Origin: an uncultured virus (IMG/VR IMGVR_UViG_3300027896_000030)
Taxonomy: Duplodnaviria; Heunggongvirae; Uroviricota; Caudoviricetes
DNA: 20,000 bases
Strand: one strand, 5' to 3'
IMG/VR virus record: IMGVR_UViG_3300027896_000030
Within the stretch, counting starts at the first letter, position 1. Each line of letters opens with the position of its first letter. The notes under the pieces are model-generated. The model searched no databases. It worked only from the letters and a program-made list of their open reading frames with translations, and was not told the DNA's origin. Below, piece after piece: positions 3,630 through 20,000 of this stretch. The position numbers and the translations under genes are program-made.

Positions 3630-5366
3630 ATGAACATGCAATGTATGATATGTAACAGAGAGTTTGAGATTGGTCGTTTACAAATACATTTATCTAAAAT
3701 TCATAAAATAAATTTAGAAGAGTATTATATCAAATATATAGATTCATCTGTTTCTAAAATATGTCCGGTGTGTGGAAATCTAAAAAAGTTTATTGGGTTC
3801 AAAAATGGATATAGTATAACCTGTGGCAAAAAAACATGTAGATCAGTATATATAAATGTAATGTATAAAGATAATCAAAGAGCTGGTTGTATAAAAAGAA
3901 ACAAAAAATGGAAAGAAGAAATCATAGATGGTAAAACAAAACAGCAATTAATTATTGAATCTGGTTCAGAATTGAGAAAACTTAAACAAGAAGAAACATC
4001 TATTAAGATTTCTAATGCGCTGAAAGAAAAAGATTCAGATGGTCATACTTGTGTTGCTAGAAGTTTTATAAAAAAATATGGCGAAGAAATAACTAATCCA
4101 ATGCATCTTTCAGAAAATGTTTTGAAAATAAGAAAAACATTTCAAGAGCGTTATGGTGTTGATTGGATTACACAATCAAAAGATGTAAAAGAAACAATTA
4201 GAAATTCTGTATTTAATAAGTATGGTGTTTTCAATTATGCTCAGAGTCAAGAAGCAAAAGATAATATGGCTGTTCGTTATAAAGATATTACAATCATAAA
4301 AATTTTAAAATATTTCGAATCAAATAATTTATCTGTTATAGGTGATATCCAAGATATTTATCGAAATGAGAAAACTTCATTGAAGTACAAATGTAATATA
4401 TGTAATACAGAATATGAAAAATGTTGGAATGATATTCAATCATGGTGGATATGCAGAAGATGTAATCCATATTCAAATTCAAGTTATGAAATTGAATTAG
4501 AAACTTATCTTTCACAATACAACATTCCTTTTCTCAGAAGACAAAATATCATTAAAAATCCTATTAGTGGACGAATGTTAGAATTAGATTTTTATTTTTC
4601 TGATCTGAATATTGCTATAGAATTTGATGGATTATATTGGCATTGTAATGAAAATCAACTAAATGATAATTATCATTTAATGAAAACAGAACTTTGCGAA
4701 AAACAAGGAATTAGACTTATTCATATTTTTGAAGATGAGTGGATACTAAAAAAAAATGTTGTTCTTTCTAGAATTTCTAATCTGTTACATCTACCAAACT
4801 TAAAGAAAATTCATGCAAGAAAATGCATAGTGAAAATTATAGATTTTTCAACAAAAAAGAAATTTCTAATAGAAAATCATATTCAAGGAAACGATGTAGC
4901 GTGTATTAATCTTGGTTTATTTCATGAAAATAAGTTAGTATCAGTAATGACATTTTCAAAAGGAAGTATAGCTAAAGGTCATATTCAAAAAGATGGGTGT
5001 TATGAATTATCTAGATTTTCTAATCTATGTTTTCATACTATTCCGGGCGCAGCATCTAAACTACTATCATATTTTAAGAAAAATTATTCTTGGAAAGAAA
5101 TATTTTCATATGCTGATAGACGATGGAGTAGTGGCAATGTATATCATAAGTTAGAATTTAAACTTGATTCTGTTAGTATTCCAAATTATTGGTATATGAA
5201 TAAATTGAATATGTTAAAACGAATTCATAGATTTGTGTTTAGAAAATCAATGGTAATAAAAATCGACGGTTATAATGATCAATTAAATATTCAAGATAAT
5301 ATGAAGAATATGGGATATTGTTGGATATATGACTGTGGAAATTATAAATTCGTTATGATCAAATAA
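3630..5366 (+). CDS. free-standing Hef-like homing endonuclease: Zn-fingers, KYG repeats, Vsr/DUF559-type nuclease, C-terminal Mom/GNAT-like domain
   Basis: CxxC..HxxxxH, CPVCG, CNIC..CRRC; K/R-YG repeats; ELDFY....IAIEFDGLYWH...KTELCEKQGIRLIHIFEDEW; YELSRF...ASKLL..F...IFSYADRRWS.G.VY. Only substantial plus-strand gene in the window. Confidence 0.8.
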   Translation: MNMQCMICNREFEIGRLQIHLSKIHKINLEEYYIKYIDSSVSKICPVCGNLKKFIGFKNGYSITCGKKTCRSVYINVMYKDNQRAGCIKRNKKWKEEIIDGKTKQQLIIESGSELRKLKQEETSIKISNALKEKDSDGHTCVARSFIKKYGEEITNPMHLSENVLKIRKTFQERYGVDWITQSKDVKETIRNSVFNKYGVFNYAQSQEAKDNMAVRYKDITIIKILKYFESNNLSVIGDIQDIYRNEKTSLKYKCNICNTEYEKCWNDIQSWWICRRCNPYSNSSYEIELETYLSQYNIPFLRRQNIIKNPISGRMLELDFYFSDLNIAIEFDGLYWHCNENQLNDNYHLMKTELCEKQGIRLIHIFEDEWILKKNVVLSRISNLLHLPNLKKIHARKCIVKIIDFSTKKKFLIENHIQGNDVACINLGLFHENKLVSVMTFSKGSIAKGHIQKDGCYELSRFSNLCFHTIPGAASKLLSYFKKNYSWKEIFSYADRRWSSGNVYHKLEFKLDSVSIPNYWYMNKLNMLKRIHRFVFRKSMVIKIDGYNDQLNIQDNMKNMGYCWIYDCGNYKFVMIK

Positions 5367-12864: not shown

Positions 12865-14187
12865 TTAATCTTCAAAAGATTCTTCTATTTCAATTTCATC
12901 TAATTCTGAACTAGTATCTTCTGACAGATTCATTTCTCTGATTAATCTCTCTACGATTGTTTCTTCAGTATTCTCGCGAGCAATAATTGATTCTTTGACT
13001 CGAGCTTTCTTATCTACATCAAGAGTATGTTCTTCTGTTCCAGCTTCTTCTTCAGCAGCTTGGGTTTCAGGAGATTCATCTTTCTCTTCTTCAGGAGTTT
13101 CTTCAGATTCATCATGATCAGGTACTTCTTCTGTTTCTTCTACTTTATTTACTTCATCTTCTTCACCAGGAAGGCGAGAAAGTTCATCATCTTCAGAATT
13201 TTTTCCGACGATGCCTTGTGCTTCGCCTTCTTCTACTTCCTCGGGTTCTTCCTCAGGAGTTTCCTCAGGATTTTCCTCAGGTGTTACTTCAGATTCTTCA
13301 CCGGGAAGTTCATCCATGCCGTCGTCGACTTCTTCGTCTCCGCCAACACTATCAGTCTCTTCTTGCATTTCTTCTTCTAACTTTCCATCGTCGGTTTCTT
13401 CTTCATCTTCACCGGGAACTTTAGACAGTTCTTCATCATCTAATTCTTCGGTTCCGGGTTCTTCAGGAACTTCTTCATTTTCTTCATTTACGTTTGCATT
13501 AGCTGGAAGTCTGTTTTCTTCAGGAAGTCCTTCAGATTCTTTTTCCATGCCATCAATTTCATCATCGCCGAGTGTTTCATCATTAGCAAGAGTTGCGCCG
13601 TCATCACCAATTTTTACAGCTCTACTTTCATCACCAACAGCTTCATGATCGGGTTCATTTTCTAAATTTTCTTCAATCTCTGCTGGTTCATCGCCATCTT
13701 CAAAGATTGTGCTTTCTACACAATCTTCGCACTCATCAGGATCTTTAGCTAACTCTTCTTCATTTTTATCTTCATCATCTTCTTTATCTTCAGAAGATTC
13801 TGTTGCAAGAGTCTTATCATCTGTCTTGGCATCAATAATAGTCTTTTTTAGTTCGTCTTTCTTTTGAGGACTTACATGTGCAACACCGGTTGCTTGCGTT
13901 GCTACATCACCAACGCTTGTTTCTTTAGTATCATTATGAACTTTGGTAACTGGACCAGCACCCTGAGCAACTCTGGTCTCTTCACCTTCTTTTACTACCG
14001 GAAGATCACCATCTTCTTGCTGATACATTCTTTCAAGCACTGATACAACATTGTTTGCTTTCTTGTGTGTAGGAAGCAAACCATTACCTTTATAATTTAG
14101 AATATCATTGACAGTATGTGATGTTTTTGACATTCCATCAAAACTAATTAAGCTCTCTTTTAGAATCTCTGAGTATTTCTTTTTCAT
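12865..14187 (-). CDS. highly acidic low-complexity protein, probable prohead core/internal protein
   Basis: 440 aa, very Glu/Asp-rich; N-terminus MKKKYSEILKE|S; GGAG SD; own terminator. Confidence 0.75.
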   Translation of the reverse strand: MKKKYSEILKESLISFDGMSKTSHTVNDILNYKGNGLLPTHKKANNVVSVLERMYQQEDGDLPVVKEGEETRVAQGAGPVTKVHNDTKETSVGDVATQATGVAHVSPQKKDELKKTIIDAKTDDKTLATESSEDKEDDEDKNEEELAKDPDECEDCVESTIFEDGDEPAEIEENLENEPDHEAVGDESRAVKIGDDGATLANDETLGDDEIDGMEKESEGLPEENRLPANANVNEENEEVPEEPGTEELDDEELSKVPGEDEEETDDGKLEEEMQEETDSVGGDEEVDDGMDELPGEESEVTPEENPEETPEEEPEEVEEGEAQGIVGKNSEDDELSRLPGEEDEVNKVEETEEVPDHDESEETPEEEKDESPETQAAEEEAGTEEHTLDVDKKARVKESIIARENTEETIVERLIREMNLSEDTSSELDEIEIEESFED

Positions 14188-14280
14188 TATTTTTTCTCCA
14201 TTGCTATACTTGTAACTGGTTTACTAAAAACCTTTTTAGTTTAAAAACCTATAATTTATTCAGTTTTAAATGTAAATCGA

Positions 14281-14715
14281 TTAGAAAAAATTATTTGGTG
14301 TTTGATTTTCTTTTGATGTCTTAAAAGGTATTGCATGATCTATAGCATTACTATCAAAAATTTTGAATTTTGAAAAACATGATTTCAGAAGTGCATAAAC
14401 ATTTTTTGGTCCGCTTCTATTTTTTCCGATTGTAACTTTAAATTGACCAAATTCAGAAGAACTTCTAATATCTGATTTTTCATCTTGTTCTTCAACTTTA
14501 TTTTTGATAATAGCTACATGATCTGAGTGTTCAACTTTTTTAATTGATTCACCCATATTTGCTAGAGTCACTTCTTCTTTACCATCATATGCTGAATTAT
14601 GAGTAAGAATATCATTAGCCAAAAATAAATGATTACCTTCAACCTCTATATCCATAGTTTCAAATTCACCGCACTCTTCAATAGATATAATTTCATCTTC
14701 AATTATTGAATTCAT
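14281..14715 (-). CDS. dnaB: helicase C-terminal part: 40-aa IntC of a split intein plus 104-aa DnaB C-extein
   Basis: DIEVEGNHLFLANDILTHN|S (intein blocks F/G, His-Asn, Ser+1), then ESIKKVEHSD and GKNRSGP helicase motifs. Confidence 0.92.
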   Translation of the reverse strand: MNSIIEDEIISIEECGEFETMDIEVEGNHLFLANDILTHNSAYDGKEEVTLANMGESIKKVEHSDHVAIIKNKVEEQDEKSDIRSSSEFGQFKVTIGKNRSGPKNVYALLKSCFSKFKIFDSNAIDHAIPFKTSKENQTPNNFF

Positions 14716-16265
14716 TTTCTCTTTCCTTAATCTTTAAAATACAATCTTGTAATATTAAATCGGGTTCTTTTCTATATTCATCTTCCCATATTTCAAACAA
14801 TTTAAAACCAAAAGATTCTAATTTTTCTTTCTTTTTTGCATCAAAATCCCAAATTTCTTGAGCAGTTAATTCTTTATAAAATGGATTTGGACAATCTGTA
14901 TTTTTATACATTTTTGGGTTTGCATGAAAAATATTACCATTAAATTCAAATGCTAATTTAATTGATGAAATAACAAAATCATAACAATAACAATAACCGG
15001 TATCGGCTTTAATAAATTCCATATTTAATTTTGAAAAATATGTTTTTTCTTTTAAATTATTATTTAGATTATTGTATATATCCCAAAATAATTTTTGTGA
15101 TATAGGAGAACAAAATACAGACACTGTTTTTTCTTTCCATATTGTAAATTTCTTCCTTCCTTCTATATCACCATATTTTGATATCATTCTTTCTAATGTT
15201 ATTCCAACTTTATTACAAAATTCTTTATATTTGATAGTGCCGATATCTTCACCATATCTAGTAATAAAAGATTTTAGTGACGTATGATCTTTTTGAAATT
15301 TCATTATTTCTTGATAATTATCACCGAACCGCTCTTTAAAACTTTCTTCAGAAGAAGAATACCATATTTTATCCATTCTTTTTTTCCAAATATTTGTCCC
15401 ATCTATAATACCGTGCTGTTCTATAAATCCAGCTAATGATTGTACTTTTTTTACATTTTCTTTTATTTTTAAATAATTTTGTTTTCCACCGAGTTCACCA
15501 TACATTTCGATTTGTCGATCTAAAGACCAATTTCCTTTATTTCTATTACAAAAATCTAAATGTTTTTTAGTTCCAAGTTCCGACCCACATCGTTCTATAA
15601 AACCATCTAACGACATCAATTTTTTATTTTGAATTTTATTAAATTTTTCTACACCCTCTGTTTCGCCATATTGTTCGATAAAATATTCTTTTGAACGCAC
15701 ATTGCTCAAAGTCGCACGATATTTATTATATCTGAGTTTACCATCTATTTCACCAAATCTCAAAATAAAAAATTTCAAAGAAATATTTCTTGGATTCTTT
15801 AAAAGTTCTAACAATCTATCTTTATAATTAGATACCTTATATTTAACAAAATTAGCTAATATTTTAATTTTTGAATATGGGTTTGAATCATATACTAAAT
15901 CTATCACAGATGTTATCTCGTTTCGTTCTATCTCAGATAAAATATAATTATCTCCAAGAATATCTTTCCATAACTTTGATTTTTCAATCCACTCGATTGT
16001 TTTTTGCATATAATTTATCTCCAATCTGTAAACCAGAATCAATATTTTTTAAACCAGAAGTAGTTGGAAAAACATGTTTGGAACTGCATATTATTTCTTT
16101 TCCTGATTTTGTTTTAATTTTATAACATTTTTGTTTTTTAATTGGAGATATATATTTTACTCTAACAAATCCAGAATCATTTTCTATTTCATCATTAATT
16201 TTTACATTTTTAAATTCAATATTTCCACCGCCTTTTATATTTATTCTAGATGAAACAGCAAGACA
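14596..16265 (-). mobile_element. split-intein/homing endonuclease cassette (IntN 15984..16265, HEG, IntC 14596..14715)
   Basis: Cys1 codon at 16263-16265 follows TQLNR; terminal Asn codon at 14596-14598; the three ORFs are in three different frames. Confidence 0.9.
14699..16009 (-). CDS. free-standing Vsr-like homing endonuclease with 8 helical repeats
   Basis: Likely ATG at 16009 with GGAG SD. Repeats S-L-x-x-F-I-x-x-(Y/F)-G-x-x-x-G; C-terminal YDF......AFEFNG..FHANP...D..K......GF....IWE nuclease motif. Confidence 0.85.
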   Translation of the reverse strand: MQKTIEWIEKSKLWKDILGDNYILSEIERNEITSVIDLVYDSNPYSKIKILANFVKYKVSNYKDRLLELLKNPRNISLKFFILRFGEIDGKLRYNKYRATLSNVRSKEYFIEQYGETEGVEKFNKIQNKKLMSLDGFIERCGSELGTKKHLDFCNRNKGNWSLDRQIEMYGELGGKQNYLKIKENVKKVQSLAGFIEQHGIIDGTNIWKKRMDKIWYSSSEESFKERFGDNYQEIMKFQKDHTSLKSFITRYGEDIGTIKYKEFCNKVGITLERMISKYGDIEGRKKFTIWKEKTVSVFCSPISQKLFWDIYNNLNNNLKEKTYFSKLNMEFIKADTGYCYCYDFVISSIKLAFEFNGNIFHANPKMYKNTDCPNPFYKELTAQEIWDFDAKKKEKLESFGFKLFEIWEDEYRKEPDLILQDCILKIKERENEFNN

Positions 16266-17429
16266 CCGATTTAGTTGAGTAACAGTAACGTATGGTATTC
16301 CTTGCATAACAGCAGCAACTTTCATATCGATAGTTACTTGACCTAATTCTAATCGATGCAAATCAAAAGTTTGACCTGATTTTAGTAAATCAAGGTAATC
16401 TACATATACTCCTCGTAACTCACTTTTATTACCACTTCTTTGTTTTATTGTTTCACCATATGAAACTAAATCACTTACCGATGTTAAAGTTGGTGGAAAA
16501 TAAGCCATCACAATTTTACTATGATGATCCATTTGCCATTCTTTTAATGTTTTTGCTATAATTTTTTTCTTATCATCAAATTGTTCAATTAAATCAGTAA
16601 CTTTTTCATTCGTCAAATTACAATATAAACGAACCAAAGATTCATCAACTAAATTTTCAAGAGTATAGTAAGCATAAATATTTATTTTACCATCTTCATT
16701 TTTATTTTTTGAAGATTCTACTGCATTCTTTAAATAATTTATTAGCAAAACAGATTTACCATCCCCACTAGTTCCACCATAAATATACAATCGAGTAGGT
16801 TCAAAGCCACCATTCATATACTTATCTAATTCAGCATATCCAGTACTAATTGAATTTTTACCAGAATAACTAATTGCGATTTGATTGATTACATCTTCGT
16901 AATTATCATCCAATAAATCCAATTCTTTAATTGCTGCTCTGGCTTCTTTTCTTTTCTGTTCTAGTACACGAGTATGAAATTTAGAAATTAATCCAGACCA
17001 TGTATTAATAGCTTCTTTAGATGTTGTGAATGCATTTGATTTTAATTTTTTCGAAAATTCTTCTAATACAGGAAGGTCCTGTGATAAAAAAGATGATTGT
17101 TTTCTTTCAGAAATCTGCTCTATTGCAACTGGAATTTTTGAATCTTCAATTCTTCGTTTTTCGATTGTTTTGATAAAAGGTTCTAATTCAATAAAATGAC
17201 CACCACTCAGCAATGAATCGATAATATATTCTGATGTCTTTTTATCCACTCTATACTTTGCAGAAATTTTACACAATTCAAACTTAGATCGAAATTGTAT
17301 TGCCGTATCTTCTTCGTTATATGAATCTAGTATGAAACTAATATCTCGAATTACAGAGTCTGTAAATTTTGGATTATCATCCAAAAGTATAGCACAGCAT
17401 AGATTAATAAATTGTTCTGTTAAAATCAT
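15984..17429 (-). CDS. dnaB: DnaB/gp41-like replicative helicase N-terminal part (388 aa) fused to a 93-aa IntN
   Basis: STGYAELD, Walker A GGTSGDGKS, Walker B VYVDYLDLL, TVTQLNR, then intein block A CLAVSSRI and block B ICSSKHVF. Confidence 0.93.
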   Translation of the reverse strand: MILTEQFINLCCAILLDDNPKFTDSVIRDISFILDSYNEEDTAIQFRSKFELCKISAKYRVDKKTSEYIIDSLLSGGHFIELEPFIKTIEKRRIEDSKIPVAIEQISERKQSSFLSQDLPVLEEFSKKLKSNAFTTSKEAINTWSGLISKFHTRVLEQKRKEARAAIKELDLLDDNYEDVINQIAISYSGKNSISTGYAELDKYMNGGFEPTRLYIYGGTSGDGKSVLLINYLKNAVESSKNKNEDGKINIYAYYTLENLVDESLVRLYCNLTNEKVTDLIEQFDDKKKIIAKTLKEWQMDHHSKIVMAYFPPTLTSVSDLVSYGETIKQRSGNKSELRGVYVDYLDLLKSGQTFDLHRLELGQVTIDMKVAAVMQGIPYVTVTQLNRCLAVSSRINIKGGGNIEFKNVKINDEIENDSGFVRVKYISPIKKQKCYKIKTKSGKEIICSSKHVFPTTSGLKNIDSGLQIGDKLYAKNNRVD

Positions 17430-17450
17430 TGACCAGTCCTTATATTATAT

Positions 17451-17861
17451 CTAGATACCGCATTGTTGCCATGGGAAATATACTCGGTCTTCTGGTATTT
17501 CAACATGAAATGTTGGCATAAATTTTGATCCTTTATCAACAAAAATAGACGCAGTATCAAATGTAGATTTTGTTTCTTCTTCAATTTCTTTAAAAGAATT
17601 ACCAGTTGCAACTATATTAGATACAACTAATACCGATTGATTTGAATCTGTAAACCCAATTAATAATGAAAGAATATTAATATCTGTAATGATGGGTACG
17701 TTTAAACGATGACTTAAGTGGACAGCCACAATCATATCATCAGGATCCATCCCAACAACATATTTATACTTGTTAGTATTTTTTTGAACAGTATTAATTT
17801 TATCAGCAAGTTTATCAATATAAGAATGATACTGATTCCAATCTAATTGTTTAATATTCAT
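17451..17861 (-). CDS. type I phosphoribosyltransferase-fold protein (Gpt-like) with degenerate active-site motifs
   Basis: W...KLADKI, VAVHLSHRL, VLVVSNIVATGNS (PRPP motif position), C-terminal VYFPW. Confidence 0.75.
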   Translation of the reverse strand: MNIKQLDWNQYHSYIDKLADKINTVQKNTNKYKYVVGMDPDDMIVAVHLSHRLNVPIITDINILSLLIGFTDSNQSVLVVSNIVATGNSFKEIEEETKSTFDTASIFVDKGSKFMPTFHVEIPEDRVYFPWQQCGI

Positions 17862-17872
17862 TTTAATTACTC

Positions 17873-19282
17873 CTAGAACTTAATTACCGAATTGTTGTTC
17901 ATTTCTGAAATATCATCACTTGACATAAATTTATGAATAAGATGTTTATTATAATCTCTATCCATTTTCGTTAACACTTCTAGAGATTTAGCTATACTTG
18001 CAATTTTAGCTTTTTGTTTTCTAGTATTTTTTCCCTGATTGAATTTTTGCGCTATCTCATAACACCTTCCATCAAATTCATCTTGTTTATTTTGTTCATA
18101 GAGTGGATAAATCTCTTCTATAAACTTTTCACAAATTGTTTCTAATTGACGATATGTTTGAAGATAATAAAGAATCAAATACATGTGTACACTTCGAGTA
18201 AATGTGTTTCGCTCGAGATCATAGATAGGATCTGTTTCAGGAGTTAATTGCTTGAAATCATAATGACTTGCAATTTCATTTAACAACTGATATACTTTAT
18301 CCTCTTTGGTCATCATATTTTCAAATCTTAAATGCATGCCGTTGCTCTTAAGATCCATTTTAGTCAAGTCGCCGCCATCTTTAAATACCGGAATAAAACG
18401 ACCAATTGCTAATGCTTTAAAAATTGCACTAGAGTCATAAGTAATATTAACTTTAATACCGTGTGTTTTTAGAATGTGATATGAAAACAATTTGTGATAA
18501 AACACATCAATATAGTTAGCACCACCCAAAACATGGAAATTAAATTCAGTCATGTTTTTCGAGATAGCATATTTTAAGATTTCTGACAGCGGGATTGAGT
18601 AAATTATAATGGGTATTAACATATCTGTCGCCATGTTTGCAACTAGGCCCCCAGTCGCAAAATTCTTAAAACCATCTGCGAGGTGTTCATCCCATAAGAA
18701 TTTACTCCAGGTATCATATAGAGATGGGGTTCTAAAATGATGAATATAAATCATCTTATCTTTAACTTCTTGGGGTAGATTTGCAGTTTCTTGATAAGAC
18801 AACCTATTCAAATTTTCAAGTTGTGTATAAGATTCAAATACAGAACTTGCTGGACCCGGCGGTAAATCTAAACCAAAAGCATAGCTAAATTTTTGATGAT
18901 TCTCTCGCAAAAATTTATGATACTTTTCAATATAGATGGGCATATCTTTTGGCTCTACTGCACCCATAGCAACCTGGAATCCACCAGAGTCAATATACAA
19001 TTTAATATCTTTCATCATTGGTCTGTTGTTGATAAAATCAATTACTCTAACAATTTTTTCAGTGTGTTTTGGAGACATTTTCTTCGTCTTATAATTCAAC
19101 CCTGTGCCAAAACTATAAAGATATTTGTTAACATTATGAAGTACAAAATTATTAATTTTAGCATCATCAAAATGATTGATTTTATCATGTTTGGTAATGA
19201 AATTGCCCATCAGGGAGACAAAGCAATCTCCACCCGCGATAACATAATTGCACGGGTTTGAATTCCAGGTATCAGTTTCCAT
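17873..19282 (-). CDS. dpdA: TGT-fold base-exchange enzyme, DpdA-like (7-deazaguanine DNA transglycosylase candidate)
   Basis: YIDSGGFQ, GLDLPP, GGLV, HVLGG and YDSS in TGT barrel order; no CxCxxC Zn motif of tRNA-acting TGTs. Confidence 0.7.
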   Translation of the reverse strand: METDTWNSNPCNYVIAGGDCFVSLMGNFITKHDKINHFDDAKINNFVLHNVNKYLYSFGTGLNYKTKKMSPKHTEKIVRVIDFINNRPMMKDIKLYIDSGGFQVAMGAVEPKDMPIYIEKYHKFLRENHQKFSYAFGLDLPPGPASSVFESYTQLENLNRLSYQETANLPQEVKDKMIYIHHFRTPSLYDTWSKFLWDEHLADGFKNFATGGLVANMATDMLIPIIIYSIPLSEILKYAISKNMTEFNFHVLGGANYIDVFYHKLFSYHILKTHGIKVNITYDSSAIFKALAIGRFIPVFKDGGDLTKMDLKSNGMHLRFENMMTKEDKVYQLLNEIASHYDFKQLTPETDPIYDLERNTFTRSVHMYLILYYLQTYRQLETICEKFIEEIYPLYEQNKQDEFDGRCYEIAQKFNQGKNTRKQKAKIASIAKSLEVLTKMDRDYNKHLIHKFMSSDDISEMNNNSVIKF

Positions 19283-20000
19283 TTGAAAGCTCCTTTACTA
19301 AGATTTTAAATTGTTCAATAACCTGTTCTTTATTCTCATTCCATTGTTTTTTAGAAATTCTGAAAATAATATATCCCAAAGATGCTAATTCAAGTGTGCA
19401 ATTAATATCATCTTCTTTATAAGTAGTCATTTCTTTATTTTCGAAATGCTGCCGTTCATCAAATTGAATAAAAAGTTTTAATTCCGGAATATGACCATCG
19501 GGATATCGTCCAACAATATATTTAAAAGAATTATTATTTCGAATGATATTATATTGTGTATGTTGTTGAAGAATATTCAAACACGGTCGTTCTATATATC
19601 CGATACATGGAAACGCCGGTTCACCATTAGCCAATTGAGTATCTCTTATTTTGATAGAATTAATTCTTGCTGATTGTCTTCCTTGTAATGTTTTTCTCCA
19701 ATTACTAAAACCACAATTTTCAAAACATGTTTGTTTACTTTTTTCTTTAATCTCTTCTGATTGCATTGGCCATTCAACATTATAATTTTTTAATATTGTG
19801 TGTTTAATTTTTTCTTTAATTTCGTTTATTTTTGAAGGATATCTATTTCCATATTTCTTAAAACATGATTTTTTTTGTTTTTCTTGAACTTCTTTTGATT
19901 GATTTGAGCTATAAAATCCATAATTTTCAAAACATGTTTGTTTACTTTTTTCTTTAATCTTTTCTGATTGCATTGGCCATTCAACATTGTGGTTTTTAAA
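19272..20000 (-). CDS. partial Vsr/DUF559-type homing endonuclease with about 23-aa YG repeats (5' end beyond the window)
   Basis: Frame stays open to the edge (FKNHNVEWP-M); repeats K.K.TCF..YG...P.QS; PDGH....IQFDE.QH...GY.IFRI. Confidence 0.8.
   Translation of the reverse strand, partial: FKNHNVEWPMQSEKIKEKSKQTCFENYGFYSSNQSKEVQEKQKKSCFKKYGNRYPSKINEIKEKIKHTILKNYNVEWPMQSEEIKEKSKQTCFENCGFSNWRKTLQGRQSARINSIKIRDTQLANGEPAFPCIGYIERPCLNILQQHTQYNIIRNNNSFKYIVGRYPDGHIPELKLFIQFDERQHFENKEMTTYKEDDINCTLELASLGYIIFRISKKQWNENKEQVIEQFKILVKELSNGN
19715..19988. repeat. 67-bp direct repeat (19715..19781 and 19922..19988), 1 mismatch, 207 nt apart
   Basis: Read directly; encodes NVEWPMQSE(E/K)IKEKSKQTCFEN. Confidence 0.9.

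What the first reader, a model, noticed from the sequence alone, without database searches (positions are those of the whole stretch)
14281..17429. Fractured replicative helicase: natural split intein with a free-standing endonuclease between the halves
Seen: the helicase breaks at TQLNR|C into a 93-aa IntN ending in a stop. A separate gene begins with a 40-aa IntC ending THN|SAYD and supplies the missing C-terminal motifs (ESIKKVEHSD, KNRSG). IntN gene, endonuclease and IntC gene lie in three different frames with short overlaps (about 26 and 17 nt), so one sequencing error cannot explain it. Known: this matches the 'fractured gene' arrangement of phage gp41 split inteins, and the LNR|SA junction resembles the gp41-8 site as I recall it. 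Inference: an essential 492-aa helicase is made only by protein trans-splicing. The arrangement is known; this allele may be a new engineering tool.
Basis: partly seen in the sequence, partly recalled or inferred. Interest (0 to 1): 0.85.

Follow-up and report, generated by a model that had tools for sequence, protein, structure and literature searches.

The report
Phage helicase split by intein
An uncultured freshwater phage encodes its DnaB-type helicase as two genes that each carry half of a self-splicing intein, with a selfish nuclease gene between them; this layout has been known since 2009, so this is a new copy of a known kind.

Summary
On the minus strand lie three genes. The first (17429..15984) is helicase residues 1-388 plus a 93-aa IntN. 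The second (16009..14699) is a 436-aa endonuclease gene. The third (14715..14281) is a 40-aa IntC plus 104 helicase residues. They use three frames and overlap by 26 and 17 nt.

Intein-less alleles at 89-90% identity, in the same gene neighbourhood, lack exactly the 1670 nt from 16265 to 14596. They read TQLNR|GAYDEK across the gap.

The junction (TQLNR|SAYDG) is the published gp41-8 insertion point (SQLNR|SAVEE). The intein itself is only about 42% (IntN) and 58-68% (IntC) identical to gp41-8 and gp41-1. The endonuclease's C-terminal domain has the Vsr / I-Bth0305I fold (Z about 11). Its N-terminal 300 residues are eight uncharacterised ~28-aa helical repeats, DUF7487-like.

Forty-one of the 95 related loci fetched have the same three-part layout. 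Nine carry a contiguous mini-intein, and 14 are split with only a short gap and no endonuclease.

This is a "fractured gene" as described by Dassa et al. 2009: a new member of a known kind. Trans-splicing is inferred, not shown. This scan has noted the same arrangement before on other DNA.

The parts
16266..17429 (-). N-extein: DnaB-like helicase residues 1-388, ending TQLNR. It covers only positions 2-182 of the 255-position DnaB_C profile.
   Evidence: Pfam DnaB_C E 1.7e-13, 51 bits against a cut-off of 27. PHROG 19, DnaB-like replicative helicase, E 2.8e-26. 90% identical to the uninterrupted P0003/L082.
15984..16265 (-). IntN: 93 codons (Cys1 ... GDKLYAKNNRVD) plus stop, in frame with the N-extein. 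Net charge +9.
   Evidence: Best PDB match is the gp41-1 intein 6qaz, E 4.1e-13. The C/S at position 1 and the block-B Cys-x-x-x-His are invariant in 12 relatives. Charge.
14699..16009 (-). Free-standing homing-endonuclease gene, 436 aa. GGAG (16022..16019) lies 9 nt before the ATG at 16009. The start sits inside the last IntN codons.
   Evidence: ORF; DNA. PHROG 22677 E 6.6e-52. 44 proteins at E <= 0.001, the query's own record included. Homologous ORFs lie between IntN and IntC in 41 of 95 loci.
15116..16009 (-). Endonuclease residues 1-298: all-helical, with eight ~28-aa repeats (SLxxFIxxYGxxxGxxKY...). Presumed DNA-binding part.
   Evidence: Repeats listed. AF2 models have pLDDT 84-88. No PDB representative reaches Z >= 5 among 48,161 chains. 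Relatives carry Pfam DUF7487 above cut-off.
14702..15115 (-). Endonuclease residues 299-436: Vsr-like nuclease domain with D344, E355, N357, H362 and D390.
   Evidence: VIA-align gives Z 11.4 for 3hrl, 11.3 for 3r3p (I-Bth0305I, 97 of 97 residues aligned) and 11.1 for 1cw0 (Vsr). D344, E355, G358 and H362 are invariant in 39 sequences. Residues read.
14596..14715 (-). IntC: 40 codons (MNSII...GNHLFLANDILTHN). AGGA lies 8 nt before the ATG at 14715. Net charge -11.
   Evidence: gp41-1 intein 6qaz E 1e-7. NCBIfam TIGR01443 intein_Cterm, 27 bits against a cut-off of 15.6. DNA; charge.
14281..14595 (-). C-extein: helicase residues 389-492, starting with Ser+1 (SAYDGK...), then a stop. It supplies the rest of the DnaB_C domain.
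   Evidence: Aligns end to end with the C-terminus of P0003, P0004 and P0009 and is 87% identical to L082. In P0003, DnaB_C spans profile positions 2-253 of 255.
14596..16265 (-). The whole inserted element (IntN + endonuclease gene + IntC), 1670 nt. It is absent from the intein-less alleles.
   Evidence: blastn against L082 and L085 aligns window 19000->16267 and then resumes at 14592. The loci hold only a Gly codon in between.

Best explanation
This is a genuine 'fractured gene'. A DnaB-like replicative helicase of an uncultured freshwater phage is interrupted after the QLNR motif by a class-1-type intein. That intein is itself broken into IntN and IntC by a free-standing Vsr-like (EDxHD-type) homing-endonuclease gene.

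Shown: the anatomy, the exact boundaries of the insert, the intact splicing residues, the fold of the nuclease domain, and the recurrence of the layout.

Inferred: the three genes are co-transcribed and translationally coupled, because the 26- and 17-nt overlaps each have their own Shine-Dalgarno sequence. The basic IntN (+9) and acidic IntC (-11) then dock, and Cys1, the terminal Asn and Ser+1 carry out protein trans-splicing. The product would be a 492-aa helicase with the junction QLNR-SAYDGK. The endonuclease would cut element-free alleles and spread the element by recombinational repair.
For: 1. The three-ORF layout is real: two identical assemblies, and the same layout in a relative of 73% nucleotide identity.

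2. Intein-less alleles L082/L085 (P0003) are 89-90% identical in the N-extein, 87% in the C-extein, and lie among the same neighbouring genes. They lack exactly 16265..14596 and read TQLNR|GAYDEK. No extein residue is missing or duplicated.

3. The splicing residues are present: Cys1, the block-B His, the IntC ending THN, and Ser+1. Among intein-bearing loci, +1 is Ser in 67 of 68 and Cys in 1. IntC passes TIGR01443. Both halves match the solved gp41-1 intein.

4. Complex prediction for IntN(384-481)+IntC(1-46) scored 0.77 against a best control of 0.00. That mark was reached by 51 of 78 solved complexes and 2 of 108 mismatched pairs. The runs agree in at least 94% of contacts and the partner's pLDDT is at least 77. 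Like complexes are solved, so this pass may come from likeness to them.

5. ORF1 alone covers DnaB_C profile positions 2-182 of 255. The uninterrupted allele covers 2-253.

6. The endonuclease C-domain is among the top 3 of 48,161 PDB representatives, with DUF559, Vsr and I-Bth0305I at Z 11.0-11.4. The spacing of D344, E355, N357, H362 and D390 equals that of Vsr D51, F62, H64, H69 and D97 named.

7. Mobility: presence and absence are interleaved among close helicases. IntN identity is decoupled from extein identity, for example 82% extein with 62% IntN against P0002, while P0007 and P0035 share 47% extein and 82% IntN.
Against: No splicing, expression or cleavage data exist for this locus.

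Only contigs, not raw reads, could be laid, and the identical contigs may come from the source sample.

The 5' end of the endonuclease gene differs from the published pattern. There is no 27-51-nt spacer, no significant hairpin (z -1.0) and no TATAAATA motif in the element.

Sequence-level membership of the nuclease in DUF559 and I-Bth0305I is below threshold: Pfam 17.7 bits against a cut-off of 20.6, and the profile gives E 0.14 against 3r3p. Foldseek E-values were weak.

No whole genome is held, so a second, intact helicase cannot be excluded.
Confidence: 0.88

Rival explanations
1. The intein halves only dock. The two helicase fragments work as a non-covalent complex without splicing, so the intein acts as a protein clasp.
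For: The docking model is strong. Earlier notes of this scan describe dead split-intein stubs in other phage helicases (I did not check them).
Against: Every residue needed for splicing is present, and each is conserved in the relatives examined for it. Position 1 is Cys or Ser and the block-B His is invariant in 12 of 12 N-parts. Ser/Cys+1 occurs in 68 of 68 loci, and IntC passes TIGR01443. The intein-less alleles nearest in sequence carry Gly or Ala at +1 (11 of 12), whereas intein-bearing ones keep a nucleophile, which points to selection for splicing.
Confidence: 0.06
2. Assembly or sequencing frameshifts have broken what is really one contiguous intein with a nested endonuclease domain.
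For: Only contigs, not raw reads, were available. Contiguous relatives of this intein do exist (9 of 95 loci).
Against: Two frame changes, one stop and two start codons with Shine-Dalgarno sequences would all be needed. The same stops and starts recur in L083 at 73% nucleotide identity and in 41 of 95 loci. Two assemblies are identical. The 9 contiguous relatives are mini-inteins with no endonuclease at all.
Confidence: 0.02
3. The locus is a decaying relic. The helicase halves or the endonuclease no longer function, and replication depends on another helicase.
For: No whole genome is held, so another helicase cannot be excluded.
Against: All three ORFs are intact. The nuclease active-site residues D344, E355 and H362 are invariant in 39 sequences, with D390 nearly so. 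The helicase motifs are kept at 87-90% identity to uninterrupted alleles. The element has been kept in helicases that have diverged to 39-82% identity.
Confidence: 0.04

Closest known systems
gp41-8 fractured locus and split intein (Dassa et al. 2009, PMC2677866; used as a fast trans-splicing tool, e.g. PMC11168065, PMC7090010)
   Same: The insertion point is the same: gp41-8's native exteins are SQLNR|SAVEE (supplement), against TQLNR|SAYDG here. Both have Cys1 and Ser+1, a basic IntN with an acidic IntC, similar half sizes, a phage helicase host, and an endonuclease gene between the halves.
   Different: The intein sequence has diverged. By my hand count against the sequences printed in the Dassa supplement, IntN matches at 37 of 89 aligned positions (about 42%) and IntC at 23 of 40 (58%). 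The gp41-8 locus has a DnaG-like primase ORF upstream. Here the upstream genes are a phosphoribosyltransferase-like ORF and one with a weak queuine-tRNA-ribosyltransferase hit. I could not see which endonuclease type gp41-8 carries, because Figure 1 is not held, nor its host protein sequence.
gp41-1 split intein (PDB 6qaz, 6riz)
   Same: It is the best solved-structure match of both halves (E 4.1e-13 and 1e-7). It has the same small size class and also has Ser+1.
   Different: The insertion point is different: gp41-1's native junction is TRSGY|SSS, with Tyr at -1 where this locus has Arg. By hand count from the alignments, identity is 32 of 76 in IntN (42%) and 23 of 34 in IntC (68%). The gp41-1 host is a T4-like cyanophage gp41.
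I-Bth0305I / EDxHD (Vsr-like) homing endonucleases (Taylor et al. 2011, PMC3239194)
   Same: Both are two-part proteins with a C-terminal Vsr-fold nuclease domain (Z 11.3, 97 of 97 residues aligned, rmsd 2.7). The acidic and His active-site residues are conserved. Both are associated with inteins or introns in phage genes.
   Different: The N-terminal part here has no NUMOD or HTH motifs. It is about 300 residues of eight ~28-aa helical repeats, related to DUF7487 in relatives. It has no solved-structure match at Z >= 5, and the held library has no paper naming DUF7487. The His-to-Asp spacing (28) follows Vsr, not I-Bth0305I (9).
Related metagenomic loci found here
   Same: L083/P0006, P0002 with P0122, and 41 of 95 fetched loci share the IntN - repeat/Vsr endonuclease - IntC layout. 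Where the tblastn match of the N-extein runs on directly into IntN, the helicase site is the same.
   Different: The nearest IntN is only 62-67% identical. Eight of 12 N-part proteins use Ser1 instead of Cys1. Most loci (33 of 41) have a 4-167-nt spacer before the endonuclease gene, whereas here the genes overlap.

Membership tests
Fractured gene (Dassa et al. 2009) | The N-part of a conserved enzyme is followed in frame by IntN and a stop. A free-standing endonuclease gene follows on the same strand, then IntC in frame with the enzyme's C-part. | tested here: met
   The definition was read.
Fractured gene (Dassa et al. 2009) | The 3' end of the endonuclease gene overlaps the IntC gene (6-69 bp in 15 published loci). 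| tested here: met
   The overlap is 17 nt. The published range was read.
Fractured gene (Dassa et al. 2009) | Typical, not defining: a 27-51-nt non-coding spacer with a hairpin and/or a TATAAATA motif before the endonuclease gene. | tested here: not met
   The genes overlap by 26 nt instead. The fold z-score is -1.0. TATAAATA does not occur in 14281-17429.
Splicing-competent split intein (HINT) | Cys/Ser1, block-B His, C-terminal His-Asn, and a nucleophile at +1. | tested here: met
   TIGR01443 is above its cut-off. Pfam Intein_splicing is below its cut-off on both halves (18.3 and 18.8 bits against 35.8).
Splicing-competent split intein (HINT) | The halves associate and trans-splice. | not testable with these tools
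   Only a docking prediction is available: 0.77 against a best control of 0.00. That mark was reached by 51 of 78 solved complexes and 2 of 108 mismatched pairs. The pass may rest on likeness to solved inteins.
gp41-8 intein allele (same insertion point) | Inserted at the QLNR|S junction of the helicase. | tested here: met
   SQLNR|SAVEE against TQLNR|SAYDG.
gp41-8 intein allele (same insertion point) | [quoted passage not shown] | tested here: not met
   About 42% identity in IntN and 58% in IntC, by hand count.
EDxHD / Vsr-like homing endonuclease | Vsr-type nuclease fold. | tested here: met
   Z 11.0-11.4 to 3hrl, 1cw0 and 3r3p, the top 3 of 48,161 chains.
EDxHD / Vsr-like homing endonuclease | Conserved Glu/Asp/His/Asp active-site residues. 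| tested here: met
   D344, E355 and H362 are invariant and D390 nearly so in 39 sequences. Their spacing equals Vsr 51/62/69/97. The residue equivalence is inferred from spacing, not from a printed superposition.
EDxHD / Vsr-like homing endonuclease | Sequence-profile membership (DUF559 / I-Bth0305I). | tested here: inconclusive
   Pfam DUF559 scores 17.7 bits against a cut-off of 20.6. The profile of 39 sequences gives E 0.0085 against 3hrl and E 0.14 against 3r3p.
EDxHD / Vsr-like homing endonuclease | Site-specific cleavage of the element-free allele. | not testable with these tools
DnaB-like replicative helicase | A complete DnaB_C ATPase domain. | tested here: met
   ORF1 covers profile positions 2-182 of 255. 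The uninterrupted allele P0003 covers 2-253. The C-extein aligns to the remainder. All NCBIfam DnaB equivalog scores are far below their cut-offs, so this is a distant DnaB-like protein, not a DnaB orthologue.

The most novel reading that the evidence does not exclude
The endonuclease's N-terminal array of eight ~28-aa helical repeats (DUF7487-like) may be an undescribed, repeat-built DNA-recognition module of phage homing endonucleases. In related fractured loci the same repeat array precedes C-terminal parts that do not match this Vsr-like domain; L020, L027 and L030 carry DUF7487, and L030 has a Mom-like hit just under its cut-off. This suggests the array is a portable targeting domain. Separately, this Cys1/Ser+1 intein and its Ser1 relatives could supply new trans-splicing pairs for protein ligation at the gp41-8 type of junction; whether they would be orthogonal to gp41-1 and gp41-8 is untested.
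Probability: 0.2. Interest if true: 0.6.

Novelty: new member of a known kind. Interest (0 to 1): 0.3.

Why it matters
The locus adds nothing new in kind. Fractured genes with split inteins and Vsr-like endonucleases were described in 2009, and the insertion point is that of gp41-8.

Its value lies in what surrounds it.

- It offers an unusually clean natural series. The same syntenic helicase gene is seen without the element (L082, L085) and with the full three-gene element (the window, L083). More distant helicases carry a split intein without the endonuclease, or a contiguous mini-intein. This matches the steps of the published gene-breaking model.
- It provides a diverged intein allele, about 42% identical in IntN to the two engineered gp41 inteins, at a junction already used in protein ligation. 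Close relatives use Ser1.
- Its endonuclease has a targeting domain of unknown type.

Tried and rejected
- No whole genome is held.
- A single-protein scan of IMG/VR found no relative. The alignment query then did.
- Sequence search of ORF2 against the PDB gave nothing meaningful. Foldseek on the whole model gave only weak E-values, so the fold call rests on VIA-align.
- No RNA holder was listed among the sequencing runs. Run X2 holds only small pieces.
- The contig joints 14580->16300 and 14472->16303 in run X1 look like diverged intein-less relatives in the same sample. The letters between the two sides are 'not known', so I use them only as consistent.
- I considered whether the invariant GDKLY at the end of IntN is kept because it also encodes the endonuclease's Shine-Dalgarno sequence and ATG. 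I rejected this, because GDKL is also kept in loci without an endonuclease (L011, L047, L072).
- The start regions of the endonuclease and IntC genes do not fold better than shuffled sequence, and there is no T4-late-type TATAAATA.
- The N-terminal repeat domain was folded alone and searched. The best match is Z 4.7, and 0 of 48,161 chains reach Z >= 5. TAL-effector rows in the earlier list had Z <= 2.8. With pTM 0.44 this does not show that the fold is new.
- A literature search for 'QLNR' with 'intein' found nothing relevant. The Carvajal-Vallejos 2012 JBC paper is not held. The junctions came from another paper's supplement.
- No cultured phage has a helicase above about 30% identity. DNA search of the phage collection found only short endonuclease matches.
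- I did not align P-SSM2 gp41 to place the gp41-1 site. The idea that it lies three residues downstream (TR-SGY| against NR|SAY) is my inference from the printed junctions.
Full report
**What is there**

The window is phage DNA from a freshwater metagenome. It carries major head, head-maturation protease and portal genes.

On the minus strand, one search gives three consecutive ORFs in three frames.

- ORF1 (17429..15984, 481 aa) is a DnaB-like helicase. Pfam DnaB_C scores E 1.7e-13 and 51 bits against a cut-off of 27, and PHROG 19 scores E 2.8e-26. The helicase runs to ...VTVTQLNR, residue 388. It continues with a 93-residue segment starting CLAVSS and ending GDKLYAKNNRVD, then a stop.
- ORF2 (ATG at 16009, to 14699, 436 aa) begins inside the last codons of ORF1. 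GGAG lies 9 nt upstream of its ATG. It ends 17 nt inside ORF3.
- ORF3 (14715..14281, 144 aa) has AGGA 8 nt upstream of its ATG. It starts with 40 residues ending GNHLFLANDILTHN. It goes on as SAYDGKEEV...ESIKKVEHSD...KNRSG..., 104 residues in all.

**Is it real**

- A second metagenome contig, L081, is 100% identical over 4834 nt.
- A Logan contig of run X1 spans 14201-17500 with 0 differences and 0 gaps at depth 25.5. Both may derive from the source sample, and only contigs, not raw reads, could be laid.
- Independent support comes from divergence. L083 (73% nucleotide identity; N-extein 60%, IntN 67%, endonuclease 63-67%) keeps the same three ORFs, with overlaps of 41 and 8 nt.

**Exact boundaries**

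Two contigs, L082 (which encodes P0003, 491 aa) and L085, carry the same neighbouring genes. Their helicase is uninterrupted, 89-90% identical in the N-extein and 87% in the C-extein.

blastn aligns window 19000->16267 to them and resumes at 14592. The loci hold a single Gly codon in between. The element is therefore the 1670 nt from 16265 to 14596.

The protein alignment shows that no helicase residue is missing or duplicated.

In P0003 the DnaB_C profile is covered at positions 2-253 of 255. ORF1 alone stops at 182. Neither gene product holds a complete ATPase domain. From general knowledge of DnaB helicases, which I did not test here, the C-extein motifs ESIKKVEHSD and KNRSG correspond to motif H4 and the arginine-finger region.

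**The intein**

- Both halves match the solved gp41-1 intein best: 6qaz, E 4.1e-13 for IntN and 1e-7 for IntC.
- IntC passes NCBIfam TIGR01443, with 27 bits against a cut-off of 15.6. Pfam Intein_splicing stays under its cut-off on both halves.
- Cys1, the block-B Cys-x-x-x-His, the terminal His-Asn and Ser+1 are all present.
- IntN has net charge +9 and IntC -11. Dassa et al. report the same polarity for gp41-1 and gp41-8.
- A docking prediction of IntN (with 5 extein residues) and IntC (with 6) scored 0.77 against a best control of 0.00. That mark was reached by 51 of 78 solved complexes and 2 of 108 mismatched pairs. The runs agree in at least 94% of contacts and the partner's pLDDT is at least 77. 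Related inteins are solved, so the pass may reflect likeness to them and is not independent proof.

**Comparison with published inteins**

- The supplement of PMC11168065 prints the native exteins: TRSGY for gp41-1 N, and SQLNR with SAVEE for gp41-8.
- PMC7090010 gives SSS as the gp41-1 C-junction (passage seen). PMC11168065 names Tyr at -1 (passage seen).
- This locus therefore sits at the gp41-8 insertion point and not at the gp41-1 point.
- I counted identities by hand against the sequences printed in the Dassa supplement and the alignments. To gp41-8: IntN 37 of 89 and IntC 23 of 40. To gp41-1: IntN 32 of 76 and IntC 23 of 34.
- It belongs to the same broad family of small phage helicase inteins but is a distinct allele.

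**The endonuclease**

Sequence methods are borderline.

- Pfam DUF559 scores 17.7 bits against a cut-off of 20.6.
- A profile of 39 homologues gives E 0.0085 against 3hrl and E 0.14 against 3r3p.

Structure is clearer.

- An AF2 model (pLDDT 87.9) places residues 299-432 on 3hrl (Z 11.4, rmsd 1.5, 92 residues aligned), on the I-Bth0305I catalytic domain 3r3p (Z 11.3, 97 of 97 aligned) and on Vsr 1cw0 (Z 11.1).
- The same three are the top 3 of 48,161 representatives in the search that does not depend on Foldseek.
- D344, E355, G358 and H362 are invariant and D390 is nearly so. The spacings of D344, E355, N357, H362 and D390 equal those of Vsr D51, F62, H64, H69 and D97. These are the positions discussed by Dassa et al. 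(section 13 read) and Taylor et al. (passages seen).

Residues 1-298 are all-helical with eight ~28-aa repeats.

- Pfam (E <= 0.1) gave no NUMOD hit; its only N-terminal rows, SirC_C and HTH_73, were weak and below their cut-offs.
- Relatives carry DUF7487 above its cut-off, and the Atlas look-alike cluster also carries it (score 0.80, a lead only).
- Folded alone (pLDDT 83.6, pTM 0.44), the domain has no PDB representative at Z >= 5.
- No paper in the held library names DUF7487.

**How common it is, and how it evolves**

I examined 95 loci: the best 80 of 99 IMG/VR relatives and 15 metagenome contigs. One search sorts them as follows.

| Class | Loci | Notes |
|---|---|---|
| Split, with a homologue of this endonuclease between the halves | 41 | 9 are exact duplicates of another row; L081 is the window's twin |
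| Split, with no hit to this endonuclease | 18 | 14 have gaps of only 38-376 nt; 4 have inserts of 1.4-1.5 kb |
| Contiguous mini-intein in one open frame | 9 | |
| No IntN | 22 | L084 is in fact an intein gene cut by the contig end |
| IntN only | 5 | |

- The +1 residue is Ser in 67 and Cys in 1 of the 68 loci that hold both halves.
- Of the 12 intein-less alleles at 53% N-extein identity or more, 10 have Gly, 1 Ala and 1 Ser at that position.
- Among 12 N-part proteins, 4 start the intein with Cys and 8 with Ser.
- Extein and IntN identities are decoupled. The window against P0002 is 82% in the extein and 62% in IntN. P0007 against P0035 is 47% and 82%.
- Together with the interleaved presence and absence, this fits a mobile element. 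No congruence-tested tree was built.
- The 5' overlap of the endonuclease gene seen here is the minority form. It occurs in 5 of 41 rows, 33 rows have a 4-167-nt spacer, and 3 have more than 900 nt.
- The 3' overlap with the IntC gene is the majority form, in 31 of 41 rows. Starts were called as the first in-frame ATG, so these figures are rough.

**Regulation**

Neither start region folds better than shuffled sequence: z -1.0 and +0.48. There is no TATAAATA in the element. Promoter-like matches are at the chance level, 28 found against 24.3 expected. Co-transcription with translational coupling is my inference.

**Verdict**

- The arrangement is that of Dassa et al. 2009 (abstract and sections 10-14 and 16 seen in part or in full).
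- The site is that of gp41-8, and the nuclease is of the EDxHD/Vsr-like kind.
- This scan has noted the same arrangement on other DNA at least 8 times (I did not check those notes).
- It is a new, diverged member of a known kind.
- The least understood piece is the repeat domain of the endonuclease.

Noticed in passing
window 3630..5366 (+): A 578-aa homing endonuclease (phrog_3339 E 9.3e-102; phrog_559 HNH). It lies on the opposite strand to all its neighbours, next to the major head gene. It sits in a low-GC island of 0.26-0.28, against about 0.40 on both sides.
   Followed up: no
window 19272..19973 (-): A second, shorter phrog_3339-like homing-endonuclease ORF (233 aa, E 3.8e-11). The window therefore holds three endonuclease genes in 20 kb.
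   Followed up: no
window 12865..14187 (-): A 440-aa extremely acidic, Glu/Asp-rich protein with no PHROG family. It lies in a GC-richer stretch (0.41) directly downstream of the helicase C-part.
   Followed up: no
window 17451..19282 (-): Upstream of the helicase lie a phosphoribosyltransferase-like ORF (136 aa, E 7.4e-6) and a 469-aa ORF with a weak queuine tRNA-ribosyltransferase hit (E 3.9e-7). They may be a base-modification pair.
   Followed up: no
P0002, P0005-P0008, P0012, P0035, P0036; L084: Eight of the 12 related helicase N-parts begin the intein with Ser instead of Cys (NR|SICINS, NR|SIFIKS ...). These are natural split inteins with a Ser1 nucleophile at the same site.
   Followed up: partly
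P0144 (553 aa): A family-B DNA polymerase fragment ends at YGDTDS. It is followed by an intein N-part that runs on, in the same frame and without a stop, into a repeat + Vsr-like endonuclease. This is an IntN-endonuclease fusion.
   Followed up: partly
L042:5203-6381 (-): In one related fractured helicase locus, a radical-SAM/SPASM gene on the opposite strand lies between IntN and the endonuclease gene. This widens the gap to 2.5 kb.
   Followed up: partly
L020:931-2421, L027:4833-6314, L030:4947-6512, L035:4864-6246: These ORFs lie between IntN and IntC. L020, L027 and L030 carry DUF7487 (Pfam) and gave no tblastn hit to this window's endonuclease. L035 matches this endonuclease's N-terminal repeat part by tblastn but not its Vsr-like domain. 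L030 has a Mom-like hit of 26.7 bits against a cut-off of 27.1, and L035 a BRCT hit. The repeat module may pair with different C-terminal domains.
   Followed up: partly
window 14702..15115 (-), model residues 298-436: After Vsr, DUF559 and I-Bth0305I, the next best structural matches are RAP-domain proteins: a Toxoplasma mitoribosome protein (Z 9.8) and human FASTKD4 FAST1-FAST2-RAP (Z 9.5). Helical repeats followed by a Vsr-like fold is, as I recall, also their architecture.
   Followed up: no
window 16309..16419: Contig depth in run X1 rises to 94 here, against about 25-50 elsewhere, and many variant contigs lie on this stretch. It is a conserved helicase segment, shared by several related phages in the sample.
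   Followed up: no
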